NCBI GenBank assembly: GCA_034667725.1
Contig: JAXDQS010000010.1
Coordinates: 217,937-281,936 of the forward strand
Direction: 5' to 3'
Source of the DNA: Thermoplasmata archaeon
Lineage (GTDB): Archaea; Thermoplasmatota; E2; JACPAO01; JAHFTW01
Length of the DNA stretch: 64,000 bases
Below, one piece after another: positions 19,266 through 35,177 of this stretch. The number at the start of each line of letters is the position of its first letter. Positions within the stretch are counted from its first letter, which is position 1. The notes beneath the pieces were generated by a model that was not told the origin of the DNA, made no database searches, and worked only from the letters and a program-made list of their open reading frames with translations. The translations under genes and the position numbers were made by a program.

Positions 19266-21383
19266 ATGCGTCCAGCGATGCTGCTTCCAGCCTTGGCCCT
19301 GGTGGGCCTGGGGCTTCTCACGATGATCCCGCACGAGGCCCAGGCCCAGGCGGTCATCGACAACGGCTTCGTCCAGGTCGGCGTCCGCGCCGACGGCGCC
19401 CTCATCGCCTCCCCGGTCTCGACCGACGGCGACTGCACCGTCGTCGGCGGCGTCACGGTCTGCACCGGCGGCGCCGGCACGGGCCTGGTCGGCCTGCGCC
19501 ACATGGCCACCGGCTACGAGTCGACGGCCGACGGCTGCGCCTGCGAGACCTGGGGCGTGTCGTACGACGGCGCCGTGTCGGGCTACGCCCGCAGCGGCAG
19601 CGCCGGCCCCGGCTCCGGCCTCACGCCGGTGGCGTTCTCGAACACCGCCAGCACCGCCGTGGCCACCGTGCGCGCCGGCGACCTGCTGGTCACCCACGAC
19701 TTCCACCCGACGGCACTCACCAACGACCTGTACGAGGTCAACGTCACCATCGAGAACACCGGCCCCGCCCACGTCGACCTGCGCTACCGCCGCGCCATGG
19801 ACTGGGACATCCAGCCCACCGCCTTCAGCGAGTTCGTCACCATCGAGGCCAAGAGCCCGCTGCCGACCGCGCTGTCCTGCTCCAGCGACGACGGCTTCGC
19901 CACCGGCAACCCCCTCAGCGGCCTCGGCTCGATCCTGATGTACGGCCCCGGCTGCGGCTCCGACTTCATCGACTCCGGCCCGAGCGACCACGGCGCCGCC
20001 TTCGACTTCCACTTCGGCGTCATCGCGGCCAGCGAGAAGCGCGAGTTCCGCATCTACTACGGCGCCGCCTCCTCCGAGATCGACGCCTACGCCGCCATGG
20101 CCGCGGTGGGCGCCGGCGTCTGGACCTTCGGGCAGTGCAACCCGGGCAGCAACCCCGCCTGCGACACCAGCACGGGCGCGCCGGCCACCTTCATGTTCGG
20201 CTTCGACGACGTCGACATCATCCCGGTCAAGCCCGCCAACATCCCGCCCGTCGCCGCCGGCACCTACCTCGCCCGCACCGCCTGCGAGGACTCCCGCGTC
20301 TCGTTCGACGGGAGCAAGAGCACCGACCCCGACGGCTTCGTCCGCACCCACGCCTGGACCTTCGGCGACGGCGGCAACGCCACCGGCGAGAAGGTCGACC
20401 ACCTCTACAAGGCGCCGGGCCCCTACACCGTGACGCACACTGTGATGGACAACAACGGCGCCCTCACCACCCGCACCTTCACCATCGTGAGCGCCGGCGA
20501 CCCCGACTGCTGCCTCAACCTCAACCCGGTCCCGCCCATCGACGCGATGGAGTTCGACGCCGTCGGCTTCCTGCCCATCGTCTGGGACTTCGAGGACGGC
20601 CCCTACAGCTTCGACCTGTTCCCGCTGCCGACGGGCGCCACCTTCAACCCCGCCACCGGAGAGTTCGGCTGGCCCACCGCGGCCGGCGACGCTGGCGCCT
20701 ACACCCTCACCCTGCTGGCCACGGACGGCGGCGGCTGCACCGTCGGCACCGAGGTCGACATCGCCGTCCGCCCGTACCCGCCGCCGCTGCCGCCCGCCGA
20801 GGACCATGACCTCGACGGCATCGCCAACGCGCAGGACAACTGCCCCGACCGCGTCAACCGCGACCAGGGCGACGCCGACCGCGACGGCCTCGGCGACCTG
20901 TGCGACGACGACCCCGGCCTCACGGGCCCGGAGGCCGAGGCCGCGCGCCGGCTGCGCGCCGGCGGCGCGCGCGACCGCGACCGCGACGGGGTCGCCGACG
21001 TGGCCGACGTCTGCCCCGACGTGGCCGACCGCGACCAGAAGGACCTCGACGGCGACCGCCTCGGCGACCTGTGCGACCCGGACGCCGACGGCGACACGGT
21101 GCGCGACCAGCCCGCCGCCGGCATCCCGGCCGACAACTGCCTCCAACTGGCCAACGCGGACCAGGCCGACGCGGACGGCGACGGCGTCGGCGACGCCTGC
21201 GCCGCCGACCGCCTCGCCGCCGCCCAGGCGCGCAGCAGCGACGCCGAAGGCCGGCCCGCCGTCCTGGCCGCCGAGCAAGGCGGCCTCGGCTCGGGCGCCA
21301 AGGCGTTCATGCTGGCGTTCGCCGCCGCAGGCCTCCTGGGCCTGCTGGTGGTCTTGGCCATCCTGCGCCGCAACGAAGCGTAG
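19266..21383 (+). CDS. Surface protein with PKD domain, Ig-like domain, TSP3 calcium-binding repeats and C-terminal TM anchor
   Basis: Signal peptide; PKD motif (FDGSKSTDPDGFVRTHAWTFGDGGNATGEKVDHLYKAPGPYTVTHTV); Asp-rich DxDxDGxxDxxDNCP repeats; C-terminal AFMLAFAAAGLLGLLVVLAILRRNEA. Paralogous to 57188..59221 and 61203..63659. Confidence 0.6.
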   Translation: MRPAMLLPALALVGLGLLTMIPHEAQAQAVIDNGFVQVGVRADGALIASPVSTDGDCTVVGGVTVCTGGAGTGLVGLRHMATGYESTADGCACETWGVSYDGAVSGYARSGSAGPGSGLTPVAFSNTASTAVATVRAGDLLVTHDFHPTALTNDLYEVNVTIENTGPAHVDLRYRRAMDWDIQPTAFSEFVTIEAKSPLPTALSCSSDDGFATGNPLSGLGSILMYGPGCGSDFIDSGPSDHGAAFDFHFGVIAASEKREFRIYYGAASSEIDAYAAMAAVGAGVWTFGQCNPGSNPACDTSTGAPATFMFGFDDVDIIPVKPANIPPVAAGTYLARTACEDSRVSFDGSKSTDPDGFVRTHAWTFGDGGNATGEKVDHLYKAPGPYTVTHTVMDNNGALTTRTFTIVSAGDPDCCLNLNPVPPIDAMEFDAVGFLPIVWDFEDGPYSFDLFPLPTGATFNPATGEFGWPTAAGDAGAYTLTLLATDGGGCTVGTEVDIAVRPYPPPLPPAEDHDLDGIANAQDNCPDRVNRDQGDADRDGLGDLCDDDPGLTGPEAEAARRLRAGGARDRDRDGVADVADVCPDVADRDQKDLDGDRLGDLCDPDADGDTVRDQPAAGIPADNCLQLANADQADADGDGVGDACAADRLAAAQARSSDAEGRPAVLAAEQGGLGSGAKAFMLAFAAAGLLGLLVVLAILRRNEA

Positions 21384-21438
21384 CCGAAAAAATCGAAGGA
21401 AACGGAAGGAAAAGGGAAGAAGGGAATGTCAGCTTGGC
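21384..21438 (-). terminator. T-rich/pyrimidine-rich tract downstream of the minus-strand gene
   Basis: Minus-strand reading ...cattcccttcttcccttttccttccgtttccttcgattttttcgg directly after the stop of 21439..22041. Confidence 0.3.
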
Positions 21439-22041
21439 TCAGAACAGGCTCGCGACCCCGGACACCATGCCGGAGAAGAACGCCTCGACCTGGCCCATGA
21501 AGCTCGCGTCGGCCTCGACGTCCGCCTGGGCGTCGACCGAGGCGTCCGCCTGCAGGCCCGCGTCGAGCTGGGCGTCGGCCGCGACGTCCGCGTCGACCGC
21601 CGCGTGGGCGTCCGCGGCCACGTTGGCGGCCGCGTCGAGCGCGCCGTCGACCGTGCCGTGGACCGTCGACTGGGCGGTCGCGGTGGCGGTGCCGGCCAGG
21701 CCGAGGCCCGTGCCGAGGGCACCGGTGGCGGTCGCCTGCGCGTCCGCCGTCACGTCGGCCGCGGCGTGGGCCGCGGCGTCGAGCTGGGCGTCGGCGTCGA
21801 CGCTGGCGTCGAGGGCCGCGTCGAGGTTGGCGTCGACGTTGGCGTCAAGGCTGGCGTCCGCATCCGCGGCGGCGTCCAGGCCAGCGTCCGCGGCGGCGTC
21901 GGCGGCAGCGTCCGCCGCGCCGGTCGCGCCGAGGCCGAGCATGGCCGTGCCCGGGATGGCCAGGGCCAGCAGGGCAGTCAGGGCAAGGGCAGCAAGGCCC
22001 GCCTTCTTCCAGGGTTTCTTGGGGGTGTGTTGGGGTTCCAT
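21439..22041 (-). CDS. Ala/Asp-rich low-complexity secreted protein
   Basis: Signal peptide after the internal Met (MEPQHTPKKPWKKAGLAALALTALLALAIPGTA), then ~150 aa of D-A-rich degenerate repeats; hydrophobic C-terminus. Confidence 0.4.
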   Translation of the reverse strand: MEPQHTPKKPWKKAGLAALALTALLALAIPGTAMLGLGATGAADAAADAAADAGLDAAADADASLDANVDANLDAALDASVDADAQLDAAAHAAADVTADAQATATGALGTGLGLAGTATATAQSTVHGTVDGALDAAANVAADAHAAVDADVAADAQLDAGLQADASVDAQADVEADASFMGQVEAFFSGMVSGVASLF

Positions 22042-22252
22042 CGGGGTCACCTTGTCTCCTGGTCCGACGGCGCGGCACATAAGGCGACGCGATACGCCGG
22101 GAAACTCCCAGCACCTCCTCAGGCAGGCTTATCTACGAACCATCCTGAGCCGGCCCCCGACGCCTGTGCCGGGTCCCCCCGGGTCGGTCGTTGAAAGATG
22201 AAGGAGGGCGGGGCGCCACCGCGGCCCAAACTCCCTATGGAGACAGACAACT

Positions 22253-22621
22253 ATGGCAATGTTCGTTCGTTTTGAGACCCCCAAGGAGCTTGGGGCGCAG
22301 ATCTACGAGACCATCGAGAAGGCCCGCAGCACGGGCCGGGTCGCCAAGGGCGCCAACGAGGTCACGAAGCAGGTGGAGCGCGGCGTGGCGAAGTTCGTCG
22401 TCATGGCCGAGGACGTCACCCCCGAGGAGATCCTCGCCCACATCCCGCTTTTGTGCGAGGAGAAGGGCATCCCCTACGGCTACGTCCCCTCCAAGGCCGA
22501 GCTCGGCAACGCCGCCGGCCTCGCCGTCGGCACCGCCGCGGTCGCCATCGTCGACGCCGGCACCGCCGCCGAGTCCGTCGAGGACGTCGCCAAGAAGACC
22601 AGCGCCCTCAAGAGCGCGTAA
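22253..22621 (+). CDS. rpl7ae: Ribosomal protein L7Ae
   Basis: 122 aa; the [37 protein letters not shown] region is the conserved L7Ae/L30e fold signature. Confidence 0.85.
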
Positions 22622-22634
22622 GGAGGCAGTTCCC

Positions 22635-22973
22635 ATGGCTGAAGAAGCGAAGAAGGGCAAGGCCCCCGCCGACGACAAGCCGGCGAAGGCGGCCAAGGCC
22701 CCGAAGGACGCCGACGCGGCACCCGCCTCGGCACCCGCCACGCCCCAGGCCGGCGAGACCGACGCCTTCCCCGCGGAGGTCGTCGAGGTCGTCTCGCGCG
22801 GCGGCATGACCGGCGAGGTCACCCTCGTCAAGGTCCGCGTCCTTGCGGGCCGCGACAAGGGCCGCATCATCGCCCGCAACGCGATGGGCCCCATCCAGAT
22901 GGGCGACATCCTGATGCTGCGCGAGACCGAGCGCGAGGCGCGCACCATCGGCGGCGGGGGTCGGAAGAAGTGA
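22635..22973 (+). CDS. rps28e: Ribosomal protein S28e with Lys/Ala-rich N-terminal extension
   Basis: C-terminal 70 aa ([57 protein letters not shown]) is canonical S28e. AGGAGG at 22621-22626 precedes the ATG. N-terminal ~40 aa is KA-rich. Confidence 0.8.
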
Positions 22974-23281
22974 GCAACTGCTCCTTCTGCGGCAAGCCCG
23001 TCGAGGCCGGCACCGGCAAGATGTACATCAAGCGGGACGCGACCGTGTTCCACTTCTGCAGCAGCAAGTGCCAGCGCAACCAGGTCGAGCTCGGCCGCGT
23101 CAACCGGCACGTCGGCTGGACCAAGGCCTACGCCGAGCACAAGGGCGACCGCCAGACGACGTCCGCCCGCGCCGCCGGCAAGGGCACCGCGACCGGCAAG
23201 GCCGTCGCCGCCGCCAAGCCTGCCAAGCCCGCGAAGCCCGCCAAGGCCGCCAAGAAGACGGCCGAGGCCCAGGCCGAGTAA
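22970..23281 (+). CDS. rpl24e: Ribosomal protein L24e
   Basis: [37 protein letters not shown] zinc-ribbon N-terminus; GTG start overlaps the S28e stop. Confidence 0.85.
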
Positions 23282-23294
23282 GCGCGCGCCAGCG

Positions 23295-23328
23295 CCTCCT
23301 TTTTCCCTCTCCTTCCTCCCCTCTTTTG
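23295..23328 (+). terminator. Pyrimidine-rich T-tract after the ribosomal protein operon
   Basis: cctcctttttccctctccttcctcccctcttttg shares the CTCCTTTTTCC core with the tracts at 2041 and 28070. Confidence 0.3.
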
Positions 23329-23351
23329 AACGCGGCCGGCTTCGGCGCCCC

Positions 23352-23906
23352 GTGGCCCTGACGCCGTCCACGATGGTGGAGCTCGGCACGCCCGCCCCCG
23401 ACTTCGCGCTGCCCGACACCGAGGGCCGCGCCGTCCGCCGCGCCGACTTCGCGGGCCGGCCGCTGCTGGTGATGTTCCTCTGCAACCACTGCCCCTACGT
23501 CAAGCACGTCGCCAAGGGGCTCGCCGACGCCACCGCCAAATACCTCCAGAAGGGGCTCGCCGTGGTCGCCATCAACGCCAACGACGCCGAGCGCTACCCC
23601 GAGGACTCCCCCGCCAACATGCGTCGCGAGGCCCGCGACCGCGGCTACCGCTTCCCCTACCTGTTCGACGAGACCCAGGAAGTGGCCCGCGCCTACCACG
23701 CCGCCTGCACGCCGGACTTCTTCCTCTACGGCCGCGACCACCGCCTGGTCTACCGCGGCCAGTTCGACGACTCGCGCCCAGGCAACGGCAAGCCCGTGAC
23801 CGGCATCGACCTCACGATGGCCGTGGAAGGATTGCTGGCGGGCCGGGCGCCGATCGAGCCGCAGGTGGCGTCGATGGGATGCAACATCAAGTGGAAGGCG
23901 GCCTAG
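23352..23906 (+). CDS. Thioredoxin-fold thiol-disulfide oxidoreductase / peroxiredoxin-like protein
   Basis: CxxC-type motif in FLCNHCPYV within a thioredoxin-like fold signature; start may be the ATG at 23373. Confidence 0.6.
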   Translation: MALTPSTMVELGTPAPDFALPDTEGRAVRRADFAGRPLLVMFLCNHCPYVKHVAKGLADATAKYLQKGLAVVAINANDAERYPEDSPANMRREARDRGYRFPYLFDETQEVARAYHAACTPDFFLYGRDHRLVYRGQFDDSRPGNGKPVTGIDLTMAVEGLLAGRAPIEPQVASMGCNIKWKAA

Positions 23907-23994
23907 CGCGAGGACGAAGCGCCGGTCGTGCCCTTCACACCCCAAAGCCTTGCCGGTCCTTCGCATCGGCACGCCCAAATGACGGGGCCGAATC

Positions 23995-24330
23995 GTGCAG
24001 GCCGTGGTGACGTACCGGGCGGTGGCCTTCGCGCTGGGCGCCCTGGGGCTGCTGGCGTTCGCCGCCGCCGGCGTGCTGGCCCTCACCGCGCAGCCGGACG
24101 CGTCCTGCGGCGCCATCGTCACCTGCAAGCGGGAGTCGCTGGCGAAGCAGGAGTTCCCGGTGGCGCTCGCCGCCGCGTTGGGCGCGGCGCTGATGGCGGC
24201 GGCCGTGCTGTTCCTGTTCCTGCAGTTCCGCCAGGACCGGCGCCGGCCGAAGCGGGCGGCGGCCGCGGCGCCTGCGCGCTCGCATGGGCCCATCGTCACG
24301 ACGACGCGGCCGCGCCCGCCCCGGCCCTGA
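23995..24330 (+). CDS. Hypothetical small membrane protein
   Basis: 111-aa ORF with two hydrophobic helices and a basic C-terminal tail. Confidence 0.3.
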   Translation: MQAVVTYRAVAFALGALGLLAFAAAGVLALTAQPDASCGAIVTCKRESLAKQEFPVALAAALGAALMAAAVLFLFLQFRQDRRRPKRAAAAAPARSHGPIVTTTRPRPPRP

Positions 24331-25839
24331 TCACATCAAGGGCGGGATGTCGCCCGGCAGCCCCGACGCGGAGCCGGGCGCGTCGTCGGAGCCGCGCAGG
24401 CCGCGCTGGCTGCTGGCCCGCTTGCGGTAGCGCCCGTCGATGCGGAGCTGTTGGATCGCGGTCTCGAACGCGGCGGTGACGGCGATGCGCACCGGCGCCG
24501 CGGGGTCGAGCACGCCGTCGGCGTCGGGCAGCAGCGGCTCGACGATCGGGTCGTGGCCGGCGTTGGCCACCAGCAGGTCGGCCAGGCGGGCGAAGCCGTC
24601 GGCGGCGGCGCGCAACGCCCACGGCGTCTTGCCGGGCCCGGCGTCGGCCGCGGCGCGCAAGGCCTTGGCGAGGTGGCGCTGCCAGCGGCCGCCGCCCGGG
24701 ACGCAGGAGGGGTCGCCGAGGTGGGCGCCGGCGGCGCGCAGCAGGCGCTCGGCGTCGTCCTTGGCGCGGTCTTGCGCCATGGCGTTGTGCGCCGGCACGA
24801 CGAGGGTGGCGGACGGGCCGGCGCCCTGCACCATCCAGCCGGCGTGGCCGGGGCGGCGCACCAGGGTGCCTGTGCCCAAGTCGGCGGCCGTGGCCTCCTC
24901 CAGGCGCGGGACGGGGGTCGCGCCGGTGGCGCCGCGCAGGCGGTCGAGCGCGCTGCGCGGGGCGTCGTTCCACACGGTGATGCCGCGGGTGGCGGCGCGC
25001 TCGGCCAGCTCGGGGTTGACCTCGCGGGCGCAGACGACCAGGTTGACGCCGAGCCGCTGGAGGTGGCCGAGGGCCTCCGTGCGCCTGCGGTCCTCCCCGT
25101 CGGTCCAGGCCGCAAGCGCGTGGTCGGCCGTCATGCGGTAGGACATGCGCTCGTTCCATGGGCCGGGCTTCCAGTCGTCGGTCAGGAGCAGCACGCGCAC
25201 CGGCGTCGCGGCGGGCACGTCGCGCGGGAGGTGCTGGGGCGCCACCGCGACGCCGGGCAGCCAGGCGGGGCCGTCGGCCTCGGCCCGCACGTCGACGGCG
25301 TCGAGCCGGATTTCGCCGTCGAGGCTGAGATGGGCGAGGCCGCGCAGCACGGTGGCGGCAAGGTCGGGCTGGCCCGGCAGCACGCTGCGCAGGCTGGCGC
25401 CGGCCGCGTCGCGGCTCGCCATGGCGTTGAGTTCCGCGCGCGCCTGGCGCAGCGCGAGCTGGTAGCCGTCGAGCAGGGCCGCGACCGGGACGCCGGCTTG
25501 CCGGGCGCGGTCGGCGGCCCGCATCAGGTGGGCCGCGAGCAGGATGGCGCCCGTCGCCTGGTCGCCCGCGTGCTCCTGGACGGCGTGCGCGAGGTCGAGG
25601 TACGGCTGCAGGTCGGGATGGCGGATGCCGGCCTCGCGCAGCGCCGAGGCGCCCGACTTGAGGATCCGGCCGGAGCCGTCGCCCTGCTCGATGCACTTGT
25701 CCAGGCCGTGCGGCCCGTAGGTGGGCCCCGCGAAGCCGGCGACCCAGTCCGCGACCCATGCCGTGACGGCCCGCTCCTCGCCCGCTTGGCCTTCCTCCAC
25801 GCGGCGCCGAAGCAAGGGCTTCCCAAAGGCTTTCAGCAA
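24331..25839 (-). CDS. Divergent group II chaperonin (thermosome/TCP-1 family) paralogue, probably ATPase-degenerate
   Basis: 502 aa. GPHGLDK (thermosome GPKGMDK), GASALREAGIRHP, apical-domain region and C-terminal VPGGG...LVANAGHDP...IQQLRID all align to thermosome signatures. The nucleotide-binding GDGTTT is replaced by GDQATG. Confidence 0.55.
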   Translation of the reverse strand: MLKAFGKPLLRRRVEEGQAGEERAVTAWVADWVAGFAGPTYGPHGLDKCIEQGDGSGRILKSGASALREAGIRHPDLQPYLDLAHAVQEHAGDQATGAILLAAHLMRAADRARQAGVPVAALLDGYQLALRQARAELNAMASRDAAGASLRSVLPGQPDLAATVLRGLAHLSLDGEIRLDAVDVRAEADGPAWLPGVAVAPQHLPRDVPAATPVRVLLLTDDWKPGPWNERMSYRMTADHALAAWTDGEDRRRTEALGHLQRLGVNLVVCAREVNPELAERAATRGITVWNDAPRSALDRLRGATGATPVPRLEEATAADLGTGTLVRRPGHAGWMVQGAGPSATLVVPAHNAMAQDRAKDDAERLLRAAGAHLGDPSCVPGGGRWQRHLAKALRAAADAGPGKTPWALRAAADGFARLADLLVANAGHDPIVEPLLPDADGVLDPAAPVRIAVTAAFETAIQQLRIDGRYRKRASSQRGLRGSDDAPGSASGLPGDIPPLM

Positions 25840-25859
25840 GACCTGCCTCGCGCGGCCCG

Positions 25860-26891
25860 ATGCAGCTCGAGGTGGCCCTCCTGGCCGTCGTCGCTGTCGG
25901 GACCGCCATTCTGGTGGTCGCCGCCGCCGGCCTGCTGTTCCGCATGGCCCGCCGCCACGCCGACGTCGTCCCCGCCGCCCGCGCCAAGGCCGTCGGCGCC
26001 CTCGTGGCCAGCCTGGTGCTCGGCGGCGTCGGCATCGTGGCCCTGCACGGCTTCGAGTCCGCCGGCCACGACGGCATCCACGCCACCTTCACCCAGAACC
26101 TCAACAAGACCGTCGGCGAGTCCGACTACCTCGAGGCCCAGAAGGCGCGCGTCAGCAAGACCAACGCCATCGACAACATCCTGCCCGCCAAGATCCTGGC
26201 CGCCCAAGACGCGGTCAACGCGACCCCGGAAGGCACCAAGCAGCGCACCAACGCCGAGGGCAACCTCACCGCCCTCCAGGCCGCCCTCGTCACCGCCCAC
26301 GCCGACCTTGCCGCCGCGGAGGCCACCATGAAGCGCCTCGCCGGCAACCACCTCCTCTGGCTCAAGGTCCAGCCGCACTTGGCCAAGCACACGCCCGAAG
26401 GCGACGCCGAGGCCCACGACCTCATCGAGCGCTCCCTGCACGCCAGCACCGTCGGCGGCGTCCTCTCCATCGGCCCCGACGGCGCCTGCGCCCGCGACGC
26501 CAAGACCGGCGACTGCACCCAGCCCGTCACCGCGGCGGCGCTCGAGCACGACTTCAAGGACTCCCACCAGCAGCCGCTCACCATGGAGCAGGGCTTCGAG
26601 GACGCCTACCACCACAAGGCGGAGTTCACCCACCAGATGGAGAGCCAGATGGCCTGGTTCTTCTACCCCAGCCTGACCGGCCTGTTCCTCGCGCCGTTCG
26701 CCTTCGTCGGCGGCCACTTCCTCAGCCGCGCCTTCGTCCCCAGCGACTCAGTCGGCTTCAAGAAGTACCCCGGCACCAGCGCCGGCTTCTTCCTGCTGCT
26801 GGGCGGGTTTGGCTTGCCGGCGCTGCCCTTCAGTGCATGGCTGCTGCGCGACTTCGCGAAGCGCAGCGCCGAAGGGCAGATCGCGCTGTAG
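25860..26891 (+). CDS. Hypothetical membrane protein
   Basis: 343 aa; N-terminal and C-terminal TM helices flank a soluble middle domain. No family recognised. Confidence 0.4.
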   Translation: MQLEVALLAVVAVGTAILVVAAAGLLFRMARRHADVVPAARAKAVGALVASLVLGGVGIVALHGFESAGHDGIHATFTQNLNKTVGESDYLEAQKARVSKTNAIDNILPAKILAAQDAVNATPEGTKQRTNAEGNLTALQAALVTAHADLAAAEATMKRLAGNHLLWLKVQPHLAKHTPEGDAEAHDLIERSLHASTVGGVLSIGPDGACARDAKTGDCTQPVTAAALEHDFKDSHQQPLTMEQGFEDAYHHKAEFTHQMESQMAWFFYPSLTGLFLAPFAFVGGHFLSRAFVPSDSVGFKKYPGTSAGFFLLLGGFGLPALPFSAWLLRDFAKRSAEGQIAL

Positions 26892-27820: not shown

Positions 27821-28057
27821 TTGATGGTCCTGCGCTTCTTCCGCCGCAAGCCTGCCGCCAAGCCCCAGCCGCCTGCCGACAAGTCGCTCCCGGAGGTCTC
27901 GCGTCCCCAGCCCCCGCCCGTCGTGGCGCCCGAGCTGACCGAGTCCCCCAAGGCCCCTAAGCAGGTCAAGAAGGCCCCCGCCAAGAAGGCGGCCGCGAAG
28001 AAGGCCTCGGCCAAGAAGGCGCCTGCCAAGAAGGCGGCCGCGAAGAAGGCCAAGTAG
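27821..28057 (+). CDS. Small Lys/Ala-rich basic protein (histone H1-like KAAAKK repeats)
   Basis: 78 aa ending KKAPAKKAAAKKASAKKAPAKKAAAKKAK. Confidence 0.4.
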   Translation: MMVLRFFRRKPAAKPQPPADKSLPEVSRPQPPPVVAPELTESPKAPKQVKKAPAKKAAAKKASAKKAPAKKAAAKKAK

Positions 28058-31068: not shown

Positions 31069-33003
31069 ATGCGCCCCCTCCTCTTGGTGGCCACCGCCCT
31101 GCTGATGTTCGCGTTCGTGGCCAGCGCCCCGCACGCGGACGCCCAAGGCGCTTCCACACTTACCGTCACCATCTGCGCCCAGCCGACCTATTCCGAGTCC
31201 AAGGACACGGCCCTGTGCGAGGGCCGCGGCTTGGCGGGCGCCACCGTCCGCGTCACCCGCAACGGCCCGCTCGGCAACAACGTCGGCGCCGTCGACCGCA
31301 GCGCGACCACCGACGCCAACGGTGTCGCCGCCTTCGACGCCTTGGCGGACGGCACCTACAACCTCCAGGCGACCCGCGCCGGCTTCGCCGCGCGCACGGC
31401 CACCGTCGAGGTCGCGGGCGCCACCAAGGCGGCCTACACCCTCGCCGGCGTCCCGGTCGAGTTCCAAGGCATCGTCAAGGACGCCGCCGGCAAGCCGGTG
31501 GCCGAGGCCATCGTCACGGTGTGCTGCTCGCGCGACTCCTCGTACCAGCCGCCCGTCGCCACCGGCGAGGACGGCCTGTTCCGGGTCGCGACCACGGGCG
31601 GCTACCAGTCGGTCGGCGCCTACGACGCCCCAGGCTTCGTGCCTTACAACGCCGAGGTGCTGGTGGACGGCAGCCGCCAGGACATCACCCTGGAGCGGGT
31701 CCCCGCCCAGGACGCCGAACTCCACGGCGTCGTGCGCGACCAGGACGGCAAGCCCGTCGCCGGCCTGCGCATCGACGCCAACCCCTCGTGCTGCCACACC
31801 GAGCCGATGCCGGCCGACGAGCCGGGCGCGCCCGCGTCGTCGGTGCCCCCCAGCCCCGGCTACGCCTACTACGGCAACCACACCACGACCGCCAGCGACG
31901 GCTCCTACGCGATCCACGTCTACGGCGGCGCCACCGTCGGCCTGCGCGTCGGCTCCGAGGACTTCGCCCCGCTCTACAAGGACGTCCAGGTCGGCAAGGG
32001 CGCCTCCGTGCGCGCGGACCTCGACGTCAAGCGCTACCCGCCCCGCGACGCCCGCATCGAGGGCCGCGTCACCGACGGCGACGGCCACGGCATCGGCTCG
32101 GTCGCGATCACGGTCAACAACCCCGAGTTCGGCCGCACCGAGCAAGGCGGCCAATGGTGCGCCGCCGCCCCCGTGCCGATGATGGCAGAGGGCGACGCCA
32201 TCGCCAAGCCCGCCATCTGGGCCGGCCCGGAGTGCTCCCTCAGCGTGCAGGCCGACGGCAGCTTCTCCGGCCTCGTGACCCCCGGCTACAGCATCGTCAC
32301 CGTGTACTACGTCTGCATGGAGGGCGACTGCGCCGACGGCTACTACCCGTCCGTCCGCACCCTGGTGCTGCGCTCCGGCACCCAGCGCCTCGACGTCGCC
32401 CTCGTGCCCCGCCCCGGCCCCGACGCCACCCTGTCCGGCTACCTCGTGGACGCCGACCAGCGCGAAGGCATCGCCGGCCCCGACGCCCGCATCGACCTCT
32501 ACAACCTCGACAACGGCGCCTGGGGCAGCGCGGTCGCCGACGCGCAAGGCTCCTACAAGATCCGGCTCCGCAGCGGCCTCCACCAGGTCACCGCCTACGC
32601 CGACGGCCACCTCCACTGGGAAGGCATCGTCAGGGTCGAGCCCGGCGACAACGCGCTCGACATCCTCATGACGGCCGGCCAGGACACCGGCTACGGCGGC
32701 TGCTGCTACCTCGCGCAGGACAGCAAGGGCATGGCCACCACCGCCACCGCCTCCCCGGCCCCGATGACGCCGGGCGACGACGGCGGCAGCCGCGTCGCCG
32801 AGCAGGAGCTGCGCCAGAACCTCGCCGCCAACACGCCCGCCTTCGAGGACCTCAACGGCGGCCTCGGCCCGTACGACCCGGACGAGCGCCCCGCCCCGAA
32901 CAACGGCACCGGCACCCGCGCCAGCCCGGCGCTGGGCCTGCTGACGGTGCTGGGCGTCGCGGCCGCGATGGTCGTGGCGCGGCGCAAGGGCCGCGAATCC
33001 TAG
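31069..33003 (+). CDS. Surface protein with carboxypeptidase-regulatory-like beta-sandwich repeats and C-terminal TM anchor
   Basis: Signal peptide; repeated GxxGAxVxV...DxxGxxxF...DGTYxL modules; C-terminus SPALGLLTVLGVAAAMVVARRKGRES. The ORF-track start at 31042 would begin inside the TATA-like box. Confidence 0.55.
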   Translation: MRPLLLVATALLMFAFVASAPHADAQGASTLTVTICAQPTYSESKDTALCEGRGLAGATVRVTRNGPLGNNVGAVDRSATTDANGVAAFDALADGTYNLQATRAGFAARTATVEVAGATKAAYTLAGVPVEFQGIVKDAAGKPVAEAIVTVCCSRDSSYQPPVATGEDGLFRVATTGGYQSVGAYDAPGFVPYNAEVLVDGSRQDITLERVPAQDAELHGVVRDQDGKPVAGLRIDANPSCCHTEPMPADEPGAPASSVPPSPGYAYYGNHTTTASDGSYAIHVYGGATVGLRVGSEDFAPLYKDVQVGKGASVRADLDVKRYPPRDARIEGRVTDGDGHGIGSVAITVNNPEFGRTEQGGQWCAAAPVPMMAEGDAIAKPAIWAGPECSLSVQADGSFSGLVTPGYSIVTVYYVCMEGDCADGYYPSVRTLVLRSGTQRLDVALVPRPGPDATLSGYLVDADQREGIAGPDARIDLYNLDNGAWGSAVADAQGSYKIRLRSGLHQVTAYADGHLHWEGIVRVEPGDNALDILMTAGQDTGYGGCCYLAQDSKGMATTATASPAPMTPGDDGGSRVAEQELRQNLAANTPAFEDLNGGLGPYDPDERPAPNNGTGTRASPALGLLTVLGVAAAMVVARRKGRES

Positions 33004-33803
33004 CGAAGCGAGGACGCGGCCTTCGCCAGCTCCACGAGCCCCGCCGCCGTGCGCGTGCCGAACCAGGTGAGCGCCTCGCCGTCCACCACCCGCACCCGCC
33101 CGGGCGCGCCGCACGGCCCGAGGCCGGCGGTGTCGACCGGCTTGCGGTGGAACGGGAACGGCTCCGTGGGCAGCAGCGTCCACGCCGCCCCGGCGGCGCG
33201 GACCTCGGCGTCCGTGACCTCGAAGTAGCGCGGCCCCGCGTGGTCCCCGAAGACGTTGCGCAGGCCCGCCGCCGCCAGCATCGCGCTGGGGTAGCTGGTG
33301 CCGTCGAACGTCATCCACGGATGCCAGATCGGGCAGAACACCGGCACCGGCGACGCGGGCCGGGGCAGCGCCGCGACGGCAGCGTCGAAGCCGGCCCGCC
33401 AATGCTGGGCGGCCGCCTCGGCGCCGCCGCCGACCCGCCGCGCCAGGCGCAGCACGAAGGCCGCCGCGTCGTGCGGGGTCGCGATGTCGCTCCACAGCAC
33501 CTCGACGCCGTGGGCTTCCAGCGCGTCCACCAGCGCCTTGGGGTTCTCGTCCTTGTCGGCCACCACGAGCGTGGGCCGCAGCGCGAGGATCTTGTCGAGG
33601 CTGGCGTCCTTGGTGCCGCCCACGTGCGGGACCGTCTTGGCGGCCTCCGGCGCGATGCAGAACCGGGTGCGGCCGACGACCTGGCCGCCGGCGCCGAGGT
33701 CGAACAAGGTCTCGGTGTGGCTCGGCACCAGGCTCACGATGCGCTGCACGGACGGGGCAAGGCGTCGCGCGCTTGGGCCTTCCGTCGCGTCCTCCGACCA
33801 CAA
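33000..33803 (-). CDS. Periplasmic-binding-protein-like (BtuF/TroA-fold) ABC substrate-binding protein
   Basis: 267 aa, class III SBP-like pattern (IVSLVPSHTETLFDLGAGGQVVGRT..., LRPTLVVADKDEN). No obvious signal peptide. Confidence 0.55.
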   Translation of the reverse strand: MWSEDATEGPSARRLAPSVQRIVSLVPSHTETLFDLGAGGQVVGRTRFCIAPEAAKTVPHVGGTKDASLDKILALRPTLVVADKDENPKALVDALEAHGVEVLWSDIATPHDAAAFVLRLARRVGGGAEAAAQHWRAGFDAAVAALPRPASPVPVFCPIWHPWMTFDGTSYPSAMLAAAGLRNVFGDHAGPRYFEVTDAEVRAAGAAWTLLPTEPFPFHRKPVDTAGLGPCGAPGRVRVVDGEALTWFGTRTAAGLVELAKAASSLR

Positions 33804-33835
33804 CCGTTCTAAGGGTGGGGGAAGTGAGAACCGCG

Positions 33836-35119
33836 ATGGAGGAGGCGGCGCCCACCGAGAGCCCCTTGCCGGGCGCCGGCGCCAAGGGCAAGCCGGTGCG
33901 CGTCCACCCCTACGCGCTCGAGCTGTCCACGGCCGCCGAGCTGCGCCGCGACCCGCGCATGGTCACCCTGTTCTGGGCCGGCCTGGGCACGGCGCTGGTG
34001 CTGCTGGGATTGGGGCTCGCCAACCGCTTCAGCCCCTGCCTGAACGGCGTCGGCCCCGAGCCCTGCGCCACCCCCGCGGCATGGACCAGCTGGGTCCAGC
34101 TTCCCCTGTTCGGCGGCCTTGCCCTGCTGGGCTTCGGCTTCGTGCAGCGCCAATGGGCCCGCCGCGTCACGCTTGCCGGCTGGCTGCTGTTCGGGTTCTA
34201 CTGGGCGCTCACCGCGCAGGACCTGTTCGTGGCCGAGGGCGGCGACATCGTCAACCTCTGCTTCGCCATCGTCGGCGTCTACTTCTTCGTCTACCTGGCC
34301 TACCACCAATGGCTCTCCGAGGCGCGCGGCATCGAGAACCTCACCGTCCGGTTCCTCAACATCGCCACCTTCGTCGCCGCCGGCTCCTACTTCGTCATCG
34401 ACAAGATCGAGCCGGTCCGCAAATGGCTCATCCTCACCGTCAGCCGCCACACCGAATGGATGCTGGGGCTGTTCGGGCAAGGCGCCGACGCCGGCCTCCG
34501 GGCCGTCTACAACCCCGCCGGCAGCACGAGCGACTTCCAGGCCGACCTGGCCCGCTTCTACTACGAGGGCCACCTCAACCACTGCCCCTCGCAGCCGAGC
34601 GACTGGTTCTCCAGCCTGATGCACTGGGACCCGTTCGCCCGCCAAGCCCTCGACGCCTGCCGCGACTTCTCGGCCCACGAGGCCGTCATCGTCCCCGTCT
34701 CGATCATCCTGGCCTGCACCGCCCTCCAGTCCATCATGCTGTTCGTCGGCCTGTTCATGGGCACCCCGGCCCCATGGAAGCGGCGCCTGCTGGCGTCGGC
34801 CATCGTCGCCGCCGTCGTGTACGTCCTCAACCTGCTGCGGAACACCGGCATCGTGTGGTTCTACGGCCAAGGCGAGGCCTCGTTCTGGATGATGCACGAC
34901 GCCGTCGGCAAGGGCGGCAGCCTGGTCGCCATGATCCTCATCGCGTTCGCCGCCTTCGCCTGGTTCCCCGAGTTCCTCAAGGCGCTCGTCGGCGTGCTGG
35001 ACCTGCCGCACCGCGACGGCCCCATCGAGCGCACGCTGCGCCTTGGCAGGCGGCGGCCCGACCAAGGCGCGCCGCCAGCGGAGCCGCCGGCCGAGACGCC
35101 GGCACCCCCCGTCCACTGA
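33836..35119 (+). CDS. Polytopic membrane protein, candidate exosortase/archaeosortase-family enzyme
   Basis: 427 aa, ~8 TM helices. Cys293 sits in a TM helix (SIILACTAL) and NLLRN lies 42 residues later, reminiscent of the archaeosortase catalytic Cys/Arg arrangement recalled from the literature. Family assignment is tentative. Confidence 0.4.
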   Translation: MEEAAPTESPLPGAGAKGKPVRVHPYALELSTAAELRRDPRMVTLFWAGLGTALVLLGLGLANRFSPCLNGVGPEPCATPAAWTSWVQLPLFGGLALLGFGFVQRQWARRVTLAGWLLFGFYWALTAQDLFVAEGGDIVNLCFAIVGVYFFVYLAYHQWLSEARGIENLTVRFLNIATFVAAGSYFVIDKIEPVRKWLILTVSRHTEWMLGLFGQGADAGLRAVYNPAGSTSDFQADLARFYYEGHLNHCPSQPSDWFSSLMHWDPFARQALDACRDFSAHEAVIVPVSIILACTALQSIMLFVGLFMGTPAPWKRRLLASAIVAAVVYVLNLLRNTGIVWFYGQGEASFWMMHDAVGKGGSLVAMILIAFAAFAWFPEFLKALVGVLDLPHRDGPIERTLRLGRRRPDQGAPPAEPPAETPAPPVH

Positions 35120-35177
35120 AGGCGGGGTCGCGCCCGGCCTCCGATTTAATCATTTGCGCTCTGGGCCAGTGTTGGAC

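What the first reader, a model, noticed from the sequence alone, without database searches (positions are those of the whole stretch)
24331..25839. Divergent thermosome paralogue with degenerate nucleotide-binding motifs
The protein aligns along its length to group II chaperonin signatures, but the ATP-binding GDGTTT is GDQATG and other equatorial motifs are altered. A chaperonin-fold protein that probably cannot hydrolyse ATP is unusual. It sits next to membrane and secreted proteins rather than proteostasis genes.
Basis: partly seen in the sequence, partly recalled or inferred. Interest (0 to 1): 0.6.

Follow-up and report, generated by a model that had tools for sequence, protein, structure and literature searches.

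The report
ATPase-dead thermosome-like protein with membrane partner
This archaeal gene encodes a protein with the fold of a protein-folding chaperonin that has lost the residues needed to burn ATP, and in every related genome examined it sits head-to-head with the same uncharacterised membrane protein, which suggests a re-purposed chaperonin working at the membrane.

Summary
Window 24331-25839 (-) is a real gene. GC3 is 0.964, and dN/dS among homologues is about 0.2. It encodes a 502-aa protein, or 489 aa if the GTG at 25800 is the true start. The fold is a full group II chaperonin: Pfam Cpn60_TCP1 E=9e-46, AF2 pLDDT 88, and best PDB matches Mm-cpn and thermosomes.

The ATP machinery is dismantled throughout a monophyletic family of about 75 sequences found only in Thermoplasmatota MAGs.
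- GDGTTT has become GD[Q/G/H]A-T-x.
- Both catalytic Asp are lost (Mm-cpn D60 to Ser, D386 to Arg).
- The nucleotide-sensing loop with its Lys is deleted.
- A 22-residue segment ahead of the GV-E/D-P motif, which I infer on indirect grounds carries adenine contacts, is deleted.

New invariant residues (E364, R368, W386, Q387) occupy the old pocket. The C-terminal tail ...LRGG..GSPKGMPGDIPPLM is the best-conserved segment of the family.

A 4-TM orphan membrane protein (25860-26891, +) is divergently adjacent in 25 of 25 assessable loci, including when the search starts from the partner.

My best reading is a non-hydrolysing chaperonin-like scaffold or holdase that acts with this membrane partner. 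It would be an independent archaeal parallel to the eukaryotic MKKS/BBS chaperonin-like proteins. Loss of hydrolysis is well supported. The physical partnership and the cellular role are inferred. I found no description of the family in the literature I searched.

The parts
24331..25839 (-). Chaperonin-like gene ('cpnL'), 502 aa from the TTG at 25839. Group II chaperonin fold, no TM segment, cytosolic.
   Evidence: ORF list; Pfam Cpn60_TCP1 E=8.8e-46; AF2 pLDDT 87.7, pTM 0.84; Foldseek top hits Mm-cpn, thermosome and CCT, TM up to 0.78; GC3 0.964; maximum 19-residue hydropathy 0.98.
25798..25800 (-). Alternative in-frame GTG start (Val14), giving a 489-aa product and a 59-bp intergenic region.
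   Evidence: The conserved intergenic promoter-like motif of related loci maps inside codons 1-8 of the long ORF. The closest homologues (P0002, P0004, P0005) begin at the equivalent position.
25549..25566 (-). Degenerate P-loop, G92-D93-Q94-A95-T96-G97 (canonical GDGTTT).
   Evidence: Family columns: G 75/75, D 73/75, third position Q44/G23/H7, fourth Ala 61, fifth Thr 67. Maps to Mm-cpn G90-T95.
25654..25656 (-). Ser62 at the position of the first catalytic Asp (the NDG motif; Mm-cpn D60).
   Evidence: hhalign mapping D60 to S62. Family column S58, gap 8, no Asp at all, versus Asp 84/103 in canonical sequences.
25372..25377 (-). Site (between residues 155 and 156) of a 10-residue deletion that removes the nucleotide-sensing loop and its Lys (Mm-cpn 156-165, TSITGKGAEK).
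   Evidence: hhalign of family versus canonical sequences. No conserved basic residue remains nearby (consensus).
24736..24750 (-). E364-R365-L-L-R368. R365 occupies the position of the second catalytic Asp (Mm-cpn D386). E364 and R368 are invariant.
   Evidence: hhalign and profile HMMER against 9rwp, 1a6d_A and 1q3r agree. The spacing to GGG is the same 17 residues. Family column R67/75 with no Asp; E364 75/75; R368 75/75.
24676..24696 (-). G382-G-G-R-W-Q-R388. The GGG motif is retained and is followed by the family-specific R-W-Q-R in place of the canonical A-x-E.
   Evidence: W386 75/75, Q387 74/75, R388 68/75; canonical sequences have A85, then a variable residue, then E78 of 103.
24526..24531 (-). 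Site (between residues 437 and 438) of a 22-residue deletion relative to Mm-cpn 459-480 (a helix and hairpin preceding GV-E/D-P). D445 is invariant just downstream.
   Evidence: hhalign. The AF2 model shows only a loop at 427-443. In Ch-CPN the adenine is surrounded by C-terminal equatorial residues Phe461, Met469 and Val474 (PMC5635000); that these correspond to the deleted segment is my inference and was not aligned.
24334..24429 (-). C-terminal tail, residues 471-502: basic stretch, then LRGG..GSP[KR]GMPGD[IV]PPLM-COOH. It is the best-conserved segment of the family and a candidate docking peptide.
   Evidence: Mean top-residue frequency 0.67 versus 0.51-0.63 for the domains. R482 74/75, G483 75/75, D497 74/75, P499 75/75, M502 72/75. 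Disordered in the AF2 model.
25817..25837 (.). Degenerate copy of the conserved divergent-promoter motif (minus strand GCTGAAAGCCTTTGGGAAGCC; consensus elsewhere CTTAAA[AG]CCTGTGGGA). It lies about 22-28 nt upstream of the partner's ATG.
   Evidence: Intergenic comparison of L002, L003, L029 and the window. The motif has at most 5 mismatches in 14 distinct loci. A TATA-box role is inferred.
25860..26891 (+). Divergently transcribed partner gene. A 343-aa orphan membrane protein with two N-terminal TM helices, an acidic all-helical extracytoplasmic stalk with a Cys210/Cys219 pair, a third TM, the invariant loop PSDSVGFK.YPG, a last hydrophobic hairpin or helix, and the invariant C-terminus RS.EGQI.L.
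   Evidence: Adjacent and divergent in 25/25 assessable loci. Alignments A2 and A5. AF2 pLDDT 90.2. Hydropathy and charge. No Pfam, NCBIfam, PADLOC, PDB-sequence or PDB-fold match.

Best explanation
The gene encodes a cytosolic, chaperonin-fold pseudo-ATPase. It descends from a group II chaperonin and keeps the equatorial, intermediate and apical domains and the built-in lid, but it has lost the ATP-driven cycle. Both catalytic Asp, the gamma-phosphate-sensing Lys loop and a 22-residue segment before GV-E/D-P are gone. That segment may carry part of the adenine pocket, but this was not aligned directly. The former pocket is rebuilt around invariant Glu364/Arg368 and Arg-Trp-Gln-Arg. I infer that this cluster either locks the equatorial-intermediate interface in one state or binds a different anionic ligand. 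The protein is produced from a short shared divergent promoter region together with a 4-TM membrane protein. I infer that the two act together at the cytoplasmic face of the membrane. The likeliest contact is between the chaperonin-like protein's invariant C-terminal tail (...GMPGDIPPLM) and the partner's invariant cytoplasmic loop and C-terminus. In that arrangement the protein would serve as a nucleotide-independent holdase, scaffold or adaptor. Shown here: the fold, the loss of catalytic residues across the whole family, purifying selection, and invariant gene adjacency. Inferred: absence of hydrolysis, the physical interaction, the docking elements and the cellular role.
For: Fold: Pfam E=8.8e-46; AF2 pLDDT 87.7; Foldseek hits are only group II chaperonins. 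Loss of catalytic machinery in every member: D60 to Ser with 0/75 Asp; D386 to Arg in 67/75 with 0/75 Asp; the NSL Lys lies in a 10-residue deletion; 22 residues are deleted; the P-loop is GD[QGH]A-T-x. The roles of these residues are documented for Ch-CPN and group II chaperonins in PMC5635000. The protein scores 121.8 bits against the thermosome_arch cut-off of 671. The family is distinct and constrained. It has about 37 representatives at 50% identity scoring at least 312 bits. The next-best hits are two fused double thermosomes at 272 and 240 bits, and single-subunit canonical thermosomes score at most 202 bits. The family is monophyletic in 50/50 bootstraps with a long stem. dN/dS is 0.18-0.26. 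New invariant residues lie in the old pocket, and the C-terminal tail is the most conserved segment. Partnership: the partner is divergent and adjacent in 25/25 assessable loci, down to 35% cpnL identity, while both flanks vary. The same result is obtained starting from the partner. All 35 partner homologue clusters found score strongly (at least 238 bits), with no weaker, more distant relatives, and several lie on contigs that also carry cpnL. A conserved motif lies in the shared intergenic region. Partner topology places its most conserved loop on the cytoplasmic side.
Against: There is no biochemical evidence at all. GP, GD, Thr96, GGG and D445 are retained, so nucleotide binding, or even non-canonical hydrolysis with invariant Glu364 as base, is not excluded. 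Gene adjacency in one fairly narrow lineage could partly reflect inherited synteny; an AhpC-like gene is also usually within 5 kb. A mirror-tree test gave no co-evolution signal beyond shared phylogeny (partial r = 0.20). No complex could be modelled. Oligomeric state is unknown. The partner's topology rests on the positive-inside rule and a monomer AF2 model.
Confidence: 0.55

Rival explanations
1. It is a specialised, non-hydrolysing subunit that co-assembles into the rings of the organism's canonical thermosome, much as some subunits of eukaryotic CCT contribute little ATPase activity. Under this reading the adjacency to the membrane protein is only co-regulation or inherited synteny.
For: The stem-loop hairpin (strands 48-51 and 57-60), the lid helix and the equatorial core are retained in the AF2 model. 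About half the family keeps an N-terminal LLR.GA segment resembling the canonical ILKEGT. Hetero-oligomeric thermosomes, and CCT with functionally unequal ATP sites, are established (titles and abstracts of PMC5983026 and PMC5413064).
Against: The family is very distant from canonical subunits (mean Kimura distance 2.39 versus 1.36 among canonical sequences). The C-terminal strand after LRID changes from the hydrophobic DVIAA to the basic R-Y-x-K-R-P-S, and there are two deletions in the equatorial and intermediate domains. Both argue against fitting a canonical ring. The family has its own strongly conserved C-terminal tail. Invariant pairing with the membrane protein across variable flanks is not explained.
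Confidence: 0.15
2. It is still an active ATP-dependent chaperonin that uses non-canonical catalytic residues, for example invariant Glu364 as general base and Arg365, Arg385 or Arg388 in place of the sensing-loop Lys, and it forms its own rings.
For: The old nucleotide pocket is among the best conserved parts of the protein, and GP, GD, T96, GGG and D445 are retained. Group III chaperonins work without the extended sensing loop by using an Arg (PMC5635000).
Against: Group III chaperonins still keep GDGTTT and both catalytic Asp, and mutation of the second Asp cripples their activity. Here both Asp are absent in 75/75 members, the third P-loop Gly is mostly Gln or His, and a 22-residue segment before GV-E/D-P is deleted. 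That segment may hold adenine-contacting residues, though this was not shown. Glu364 is one position off the catalytic Asp on a helix and would point elsewhere (inference).
Confidence: 0.12
3. It is a decaying or functionless gene copy, a pseudogene in the making.
For: It evolves faster than its neighbours: mean pairwise identity 0.42 versus 0.68 for AhpC. Its canonical motifs are lost.
Against: Intact full-length ORFs are present in all 25 genome loci and about 75 clusters. dN/dS is about 0.2. At least 35 positions are 95% or more conserved, including new family-specific ones. Codon-position GC is that of an expressed gene. The AF2 model is confident.
Confidence: 0.02

Closest known systems
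Archaeal group II chaperonin (thermosome; Methanococcus maripaludis Mm-cpn, Thermoplasma thermosome alpha/beta)
   Same: It has the same three-domain fold with a built-in helical lid. About 20-24% identity extends over nearly the full length. It retains GP.G, the G-D of the P-loop, GGG, ATGA and LRID.
   Different: It lacks both catalytic Asp, the nucleotide-sensing loop Lys, the canonical GDGTTT and a 22-residue equatorial segment. It has the family-specific motifs E-R-L-L-R and G-G-G-R-W-Q-R and a conserved non-Gly/Met C-terminal tail. It scores at one fifth of the NCBIfam thermosome cut-off. It is genomically coupled to a membrane protein.
Eukaryotic chaperonin-like proteins MKKS/BBS6, BBS10, BBS12 and CCT8L
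   Same: These are group II-derived paralogues in which the GDGT hydrolysis motif has degenerated while the Gly-Pro dipeptide is conserved. They are thought not to form CCT-like rings and to act as assembly factors and not as folding cages (PMC2846930). This is the closest functional analogy.
   Different: They are eukaryote-specific and linked to the BBSome and cilia. The family here is restricted to Thermoplasmatota MAGs and most likely arose independently, though common ancestry was not tested. The family here has a dedicated membrane-protein neighbour, which has no counterpart in the BBS system.
Group III chaperonins (Carboxydothermus hydrogenoformans Ch-CPN)
   Same: They are thermosome-like proteins outside the canonical group II clade in which the extended nucleotide-sensing loop is absent (PMC5635000).
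   Different: Ch-CPN keeps GDGTTT, both catalytic Asp (Asp56, Asp373) and a compensating Arg155, and it is an active ATPase. The family here has none of these. Ch-CPN is bacterial.
Degenerate GroEL paralogues in bacteria (e.g. chlamydial GroEL2/GroEL3)
   Same: They are extra chaperonin copies with poorly conserved ATP-binding and hydrolysis residues and unclear, probably non-canonical roles. This comparison rests on my own knowledge and was not checked here.
   Different: They are group I, not group II. No conserved membrane partner is known for them.

Membership tests
Functional group II chaperonin / thermosome subunit (NCBIfam TIGR02339 thermosome_arch) | Cpn60/TCP-1 three-domain fold (equatorial, intermediate, apical) | tested here: met
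   Pfam PF00118 at 157 bits against a cut-off of 34.3. AF2 pLDDT 87.7. Foldseek TM 0.66-0.78 to Mm-cpn, thermosome and CCT chains.
Functional group II chaperonin / thermosome subunit (NCBIfam TIGR02339 thermosome_arch) | Score above the curated family cut-off | tested here: not met
   thermosome_arch 121.8 bits against a cut-off of 671.1. thermosome alpha and beta equivalogs score 95 bits against cut-offs of 450 and 400.
Functional group II chaperonin / thermosome subunit (NCBIfam TIGR02339 thermosome_arch) | Phosphate-binding P-loop GDGTT[TS] | tested here: not met
   The window protein has GDQATG. In the family the third Gly is Q44/G23/H7 and the fourth Thr is Ala in 61/75.
Functional group II chaperonin / thermosome subunit (NCBIfam TIGR02339 thermosome_arch) | Pair of catalytic Asp that activate the attacking water (Mm-cpn D60 and D386; Ch-CPN Asp56 and Asp373) | tested here: not met
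   S62 and R365 occupy these positions, and no Asp occurs at either column in 75 family members. The role of these residues is described in PMC5635000.
Functional group II chaperonin / thermosome subunit (NCBIfam TIGR02339 thermosome_arch) | Nucleotide-sensing loop with a conserved Lys that contacts the gamma-phosphate | tested here: not met
   A 10-residue deletion covers Mm-cpn 156-165, including K161, and no conserved basic residue replaces it.
Functional group II chaperonin / thermosome subunit (NCBIfam TIGR02339 thermosome_arch) | Built-in lid (helical protrusion of the apical domain) | tested here: met
   The alignment through the lid region to the ancestral group II chaperonin is essentially continuous, with a single one-residue gap. 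The AF2 model has a long helix at 239-263, with a low-confidence tip at 229-235.
Functional group II chaperonin / thermosome subunit (NCBIfam TIGR02339 thermosome_arch) | Assembly into double rings of 8 or 9 subunits | not testable with these tools
   No multimer prediction was available. The C-terminal strand after LRID is replaced by a basic segment, which hints at altered ring contacts.
Eukaryotic chaperonin-like proteins (MKKS/BBS6, BBS10, BBS12, CCT8L) | Group II-derived protein with a degenerate GDGT hydrolysis motif and a conserved Gly-Pro | tested here: met
   GP is 75/75 and the GDGT motif is degenerate. The criterion is as described in PMC2846930. This establishes resemblance only.
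Eukaryotic chaperonin-like proteins (MKKS/BBS6, BBS10, BBS12, CCT8L) | Common descent with the eukaryotic BBS/CCT8L clades | not tested
   No BBS sequences were included in the tree. All 25 genome loci come from Thermoplasmatota MAGs, which makes an independent origin the default assumption.
Group III chaperonins (Ch-CPN type) | Absence of the extended nucleotide-sensing loop | tested here: met
   A 10-residue deletion lies at that site; compare PMC5635000.
Group III chaperonins (Ch-CPN type) | Retained GDGTTT, both catalytic Asp and a compensating Arg155 | tested here: not met
   None of these is present in the family.

The most novel reading that the evidence does not exclude
The pair forms a previously undescribed membrane-anchored machine derived from a chaperonin. 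A nucleotide-independent thermosome-like ring or monomer docks through its invariant C-terminal peptide onto a 4-TM protein that carries an extracellular helical stalk. The complex then acts either in biogenesis or quality control of envelope and secreted proteins, or as a trans-membrane relay in which the stalk senses and the chaperonin fold transduces. This would be an independent archaeal invention of a 'chaperonin-like assembly factor', parallel to the eukaryotic BBS proteins.
Probability: 0.25. Interest if true: 0.8.

Novelty: new variant of a known kind. Interest (0 to 1): 0.6.

Why it matters
Chaperonins are textbook ATP-driven folding cages. The well-studied cases where the fold has been re-used without the ATPase cycle are eukaryotic: MKKS, BBS10 and BBS12. 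A prokaryotic family that is under purifying selection, has lost both catalytic Asp and the sensing loop, has rebuilt the pocket with new invariant residues, and is genomically tied to one membrane protein would show that such re-purposing also happened in Archaea. It would also give a simple two-gene system for asking what a chaperonin fold can do without ATP. The family further shows that automatic labels such as 'chaperonin GroEL', 'archaeal chaperonin' and 'T-complex protein 1 subunit delta' over-annotate function. Counts of thermosome subunits per archaeal genome may be inflated by them.

Tried and rejected
1. The search for related loci with the 30-sequence alignment failed because no stretch was conserved enough. 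It was repeated with 12 sequences.
2. The partner protein was searched against Pfam, NCBIfam, PADLOC, PDB sequences and PDB folds. Nothing meaningful was found; the best Foldseek hit had E=0.07 and TM below 0.25, and the hits were generic long-helix proteins.
3. A mirror-tree co-evolution test gave r = 0.48 between cpnL and partner. That is no better than either against AhpC, and the partial r was 0.20. The test is inconclusive and I do not use it as support.
4. I tried to show a canonical thermosome in the same genome. None lies in the window or in any fetched locus. High-GC canonical candidates (P0116 and others) could not be tied to the same assemblies. Co-occurrence therefore rests on the general finding that about 98-100% of archaea encode thermosomes (PMC12874294).
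5. The metagenome scan for the partner returned only 4 short loci. The single locus with enough upstream DNA again carries the chaperonin-like gene.
6. A defence-island reading was considered because a TIR gene and a PDDEXK+HTH gene lie nearby in some loci. I rejected it: there are no PADLOC hits, those neighbours vary, and the pair sits in conserved housekeeping synteny (AhpC, UvrB, ribosomal proteins).
7. The single-sequence HMMER alignment put a 3-residue gap next to the catalytic Asp, aligning DDA with DDA. Profile-based alignments agree on an ungapped solution with R365 at that position, and I adopted that.
8. Four literature searches found no description of this family.
Full report
OBSERVATION. 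It is also the gene call of JGI (contig Ga0467041_0000015, 369 kb) and of NCBI (MEA3191253.1, labelled 'T-complex protein 1 subunit delta [Thermoplasmata archaeon]'). The window is about 72% G+C, so long spurious ORFs overlap the gene in other frames. Codon-position G+C identifies the annotated frame as the coding one: GC1/2/3 = 0.80/0.55/0.96, against a GC3 of 0.967 for UvrB and 0.62-0.79 for the competing ORFs. The protein matches Pfam Cpn60_TCP1 at E=8.8e-46 over residues 37-432. Its best solved relatives are all group II chaperonins, led by an ancestral group II chaperonin at E=5e-32. It reaches only 121.8 bits on NCBIfam thermosome_arch, whose cut-off is 671. The sequence A-G-D-Q-A-T-G (91-97) lies opposite A-G-D-G-T-T-T in the alignments.

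A REAL, CONSERVED FAMILY. A search of 5.8 billion proteins found 58 clusters at 38-60% identity. All are 460-518 aa, and those with names come from Thermoplasmata or Thermoplasmatota MAGs. An exhaustive profile search of 1.84 billion representatives found about 37 representatives scoring 312-632 bits. The next-best hits are two fused double thermosomes at 272 and 240 bits, and single-subunit canonical thermosomes score 202 bits or less. In a neighbour-joining tree of 75 family members and 107 canonical sequences the family is monophyletic in 50/50 bootstraps. Its stem is 0.68 long against a median branch of 0.15. The placement relative to particular thermosome clades is not resolved. All 25 loci found in species-representative genomes are Thermoplasmatota MAGs; two labelled 'Halobacteriales' and one labelled 'bacterium' share the same synteny. 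Nei-Gojobori dN/dS for the five closest pairs is 0.18-0.26, with dS 0.7-1.3 and so near saturation. An AF2 model built on 30 family sequences is confident (pLDDT 87.7, pTM 0.84). It shows the three chaperonin domains, including a long helix (239-263) where the lid helix is expected. Foldseek against the PDB returns only Mm-cpn, thermosome and CCT chains, with TM up to 0.78 at about 20% identity. This is not a pseudogene fragment.

STATE OF THE ATP SITE. I aligned the family profile to a profile of the 103 nearest canonical sequences with hhalign and tabulated the columns. To obtain standard numbering I added the Mm-cpn sequence recalled from memory. It has the 543 residues of PDB chain 3kfb_A, and D60, K161 and D386 fall in the NDG, TGK and DDAV motifs. 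The mapping was then recomputed. The results are:
- Mm-cpn D60 maps to Ser62. The family column is Ser 58/75 with no Asp; canonical sequences have Asp 84/103.
- G90-D-G-T-T-T95 maps to G92-D-Q-A-T-G97. In the family the third position is Q44/G23/H7, the fourth is Ala 61, and the fifth is Thr 67.
- The nucleotide-sensing loop, residues 156-165 (TSITGKGAEK, with K161), is a deletion in all members.
- D386 maps to Arg365 (Arg 67/75, no Asp). It is preceded by invariant Glu364 and followed by invariant Arg368.
- G403-G-G is kept, but the following S/A-x-E becomes R-W-Q-R (W386 75/75, Q387 74/75).
- Residues 459-480 (22 aa, the helix and hairpin before GV-E/D-P) are deleted.
- E490 maps to the invariant D445.

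Profile HMMER against the PDB independently places Arg365 opposite the Asp of x-D-A-[LIV] in 9rwp, 1a6d_A and 1q3r. The single-sequence alignment had introduced a 3-residue gap there, which I reject. The functional meaning of these residues is documented. In the Ch-CPN structure the P-loop Asp and Thr residues bind the beta- and gamma-phosphates and Mg. The two Asp activate the attacking water. A basic residue (Lys of the sensing loop in group II, Arg155 in group III) contacts the gamma-phosphate. Phe461, Met469 and Val474 surround the adenine (PMC5635000). I suspect the deleted 22-residue segment carries equivalents of some of these adenine contacts, but I did not align Ch-CPN and this remains an inference. 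Loss of canonical hydrolysis is thus strongly supported and ancient, since no member keeps either Asp. Retention of GP (75/75), GD, Thr96, GGG and D445 means some form of nucleotide or phosphate-ligand binding cannot be excluded.

WHAT IS NEWLY CONSERVED. Within the family the apical domain is the least conserved part (mean top-residue frequency 0.51). [quoted passage not shown] The C-terminal tail (471-502) is the best conserved at 0.67. The tail reads D-x-R-[YHF]-x-[KR]-[RK]-P-S-x4-L-R-G-G-x-G-x2-G-S-P-[KR]-G-M-P-G-D-[IV]-P-P-L-M and ends the protein (M502 72/75, P499 75/75). Canonical tails are low-complexity Gly/Met repeats. The canonical hydrophobic strand after LRID (DVIAA) is replaced by a basic stretch. 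A peptide that is disordered in the model yet invariant at the extreme C-terminus is what one expects of a docking motif. That reading is an inference.

THE INVARIANT NEIGHBOUR. Immediately upstream and divergently transcribed lies a 343-aa ORF (25860-26891, +). In three loci first examined through gene calls (window/L001, L002, L003) the same protein, at 37-47% identity, held the same position, while the gene downstream of the chaperonin-like gene differed. tblastn over all fetched loci found the partner divergent and adjacent in every locus that has upstream DNA: L001-L010, L012-L018 and L020-L026. This holds down to 35% identity of the chaperonin-like protein. Starting instead from the partner, a profile search found 35 clusters, all scoring strongly and with no weaker, more distant relatives. 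For the two most widely sampled clusters (P0230 and P0248, on 36 and 32 contigs) the immediate divergent neighbour is again a 485- or 463-aa Cpn60_TCP1 protein, 70-90 bp away. The only metagenome locus with enough upstream DNA shows the same arrangement. That makes 25 of 25 distinct assessable loci. The flanks vary. On the partner side they include a PDDEXK+HTH gene, a VTT-domain gene and Topo VI, or a secreted 264-aa protein and UvrB. On the other side they include small hypothetical genes, DUF2238, glyoxalase, DUF4442 and DUF389, with an AhpC/ResA-like thiol-disulfide oxidoreductase 0.1-5 kb away.

The partner has no Pfam, NCBIfam, PADLOC, PDB-sequence or PDB-fold relative. Its AF2 model (pLDDT 90.2) is all-helical. 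Hydropathy and charge give this layout:
- TM1 at about 5-27.
- A short loop with net charge +4.
- TM2 at about 44-65, continuing into a long acidic helical bundle (66-262; 16 basic and 27 acidic residues) with a Cys210/Cys219 pair. I read this bundle as extracytoplasmic.
- A third TM within helix 242-291.
- The most conserved element, A-F-V-P-S-D-S-V-G-F-K-x-Y-P-G, predicted to be cytoplasmic.
- A final hydrophobic helix or hairpin.
- An invariant C-terminus, R-S-x-E-G-Q-I-x-L.

INTERGENIC REGION AND START CODON. Related loci have 70-106 bp between the two genes. They share a motif, CTTAAA[AG]CCTGTGGGA, about 25 nt upstream of the partner's ATG. It has at most 5 mismatches in 14 distinct loci and is palindromic in L029. 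The position and the TTAAA core fit an archaeal TATA box driving a leaderless partner mRNA; this is an inference. In the window the homologous, degenerate copy (25817-25837) lies inside codons 1-8 of the 502-aa ORF. That ORF would otherwise leave only 20 bp between the genes. The in-frame GTG at 25800 (Val14) is therefore a plausible true start, giving 489 aa, and it matches where the closest homologues begin.

INTERPRETATION. The best-supported account is a chaperonin-fold pseudo-ATPase that works with its membrane neighbour. The fold, the loss of catalytic residues, the selection and the adjacency are shown here. The absence of hydrolysis, the physical contact, the docking elements and the cellular role are inferred. 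The closest functional analogy is the eukaryotic MKKS/BBS10/BBS12/CCT8L group. In those proteins GDGT has degenerated, Gly-Pro is kept and ring formation is doubted (PMC2846930). I treat this as convergence, because the family here is confined to one archaeal phylum. Group III chaperonins share the missing sensing loop but keep all catalytic residues. As a lead from my own memory, not checked here, Sulfolobus chaperonins have been reported to associate with membranes.

The rival readings are as follows. A silent subunit of the canonical thermosome is disfavoured by the deletions, the altered C-terminal strand, the family's own conserved tail and the partner linkage. A still-active enzyme with non-canonical residues is disfavoured by the combined loss of five separate elements. 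Decay is refuted. A mirror-tree test gave no extra co-evolution signal. I could not show a canonical thermosome in the same genomes, although 98-100% of archaea surveyed have one (PMC12874294).

NOVELTY. Four literature searches found no description of an archaeal thermosome paralogue with a degenerate ATP site or of this gene pair. Database names are generic: 'chaperonin GroEL', 'archaeal chaperonin', 'TCP-1/cpn60 family'. I rate it a new variant of a known kind. The fold and the idea of degenerate chaperonin paralogues are known. The archaeal family, its rebuilt pocket, its conserved C-terminal peptide and its obligate membrane-protein neighbour are not.

Noticed in passing
P0080 and P0082 (hits; not in the window): Two proteins of 1057 and 1047 aa are head-to-tail fusions of two complete thermosome subunits in one polypeptide. 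Each half has its own GDG(T/S)K(T/S)-type P-loop and GGG motif. One is annotated 'thermosome subunit alpha [Candidatus Freyarchaeota archaeon]' (MDO8079144.1). Covalently fused group II chaperonin subunits in an Asgard archaeon may be of interest for the origin of hetero-oligomeric CCT.
   Followed up: partly
window 25817-25837; L002, L003, L005-L008, L012, L014, L016, L017 and L029/L030 intergenic regions: A conserved intergenic motif, CTTAAA[AG]CCTGTGGGA, lies between the two divergent genes. In L029 it forms a perfect palindrome (CCTGTGGGAGCCCACAGG). It is probably a TATA box plus a regulator site. The window copy is degenerate.
   Followed up: partly
window 25798-25839: The annotated TTG start leaves only 20 bp between two divergent genes and places the promoter-like motif inside the ORF. 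An in-frame GTG at 25800 would give a 489-aa product.
   Followed up: partly
window 23352-23906 (+): An AhpC/Redoxin-fold protein with a CxxC motif (weak matches, below the NCBIfam cut-offs, to ResA/TlpA-type thiol-disulfide oxidoreductases) lies 0.1-5 kb from the chaperonin-like gene in most related loci, on the opposite strand, with variable genes in between. This could be mere synteny or a looser functional link to envelope protein oxidation.
   Followed up: partly
window 27821-28057 (+); also window 22970-23281 (L24e) and the small genes at L002:11526-12011 and L003:11448-11876: Several small proteins end in Lys/Ala-rich tails, for example KKAPAKKAAAKKASAKKAPAKKAAAKKAK and PAKPAKPAK on L24e. 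These histone-H1-like tails seem to be a habit of this lineage.
   Followed up: no
window 23995-24330 (+): A 111-aa two-TM protein ends one base before the stop codon of the chaperonin-like gene (convergent). It is conserved weakly, and only in the closest loci (L005, L006, L035), so it is not part of the core pair.
   Followed up: partly
window about 31069-35839 (from L001 gene calls): A cluster of envelope-related genes lies here: an exosortase/archaeosortase EpsH-family protein (about 33836-35119, +), a CarboxypepD_reg-domain protein (about 31069-33003, +), a periplasmic binding protein, and a protein of more than 2500 aa with PKD domains that runs on beyond 35226. PKD-domain proteins also lie on the other side. 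The region is rich in surface proteins.
   Followed up: no
L006, L010 and L005 (record titles): Two MAGs carrying the locus are deposited as 'uncultured Halobacteriales archaeon' and one as 'bacterium'. Gene content and synteny match the Thermoplasmatota loci, so these are probably taxonomic mislabels.
   Followed up: no
window 20806-26331, several frames: Long overlapping ORFs of 400-626 aa lie in alternative frames over real genes, for example 24296-26107 (-) and 24451-26331 (+). They are artefacts of 72-78% G+C, and their codon-position GC does not show the GC3 peak.
   Followed up: yes
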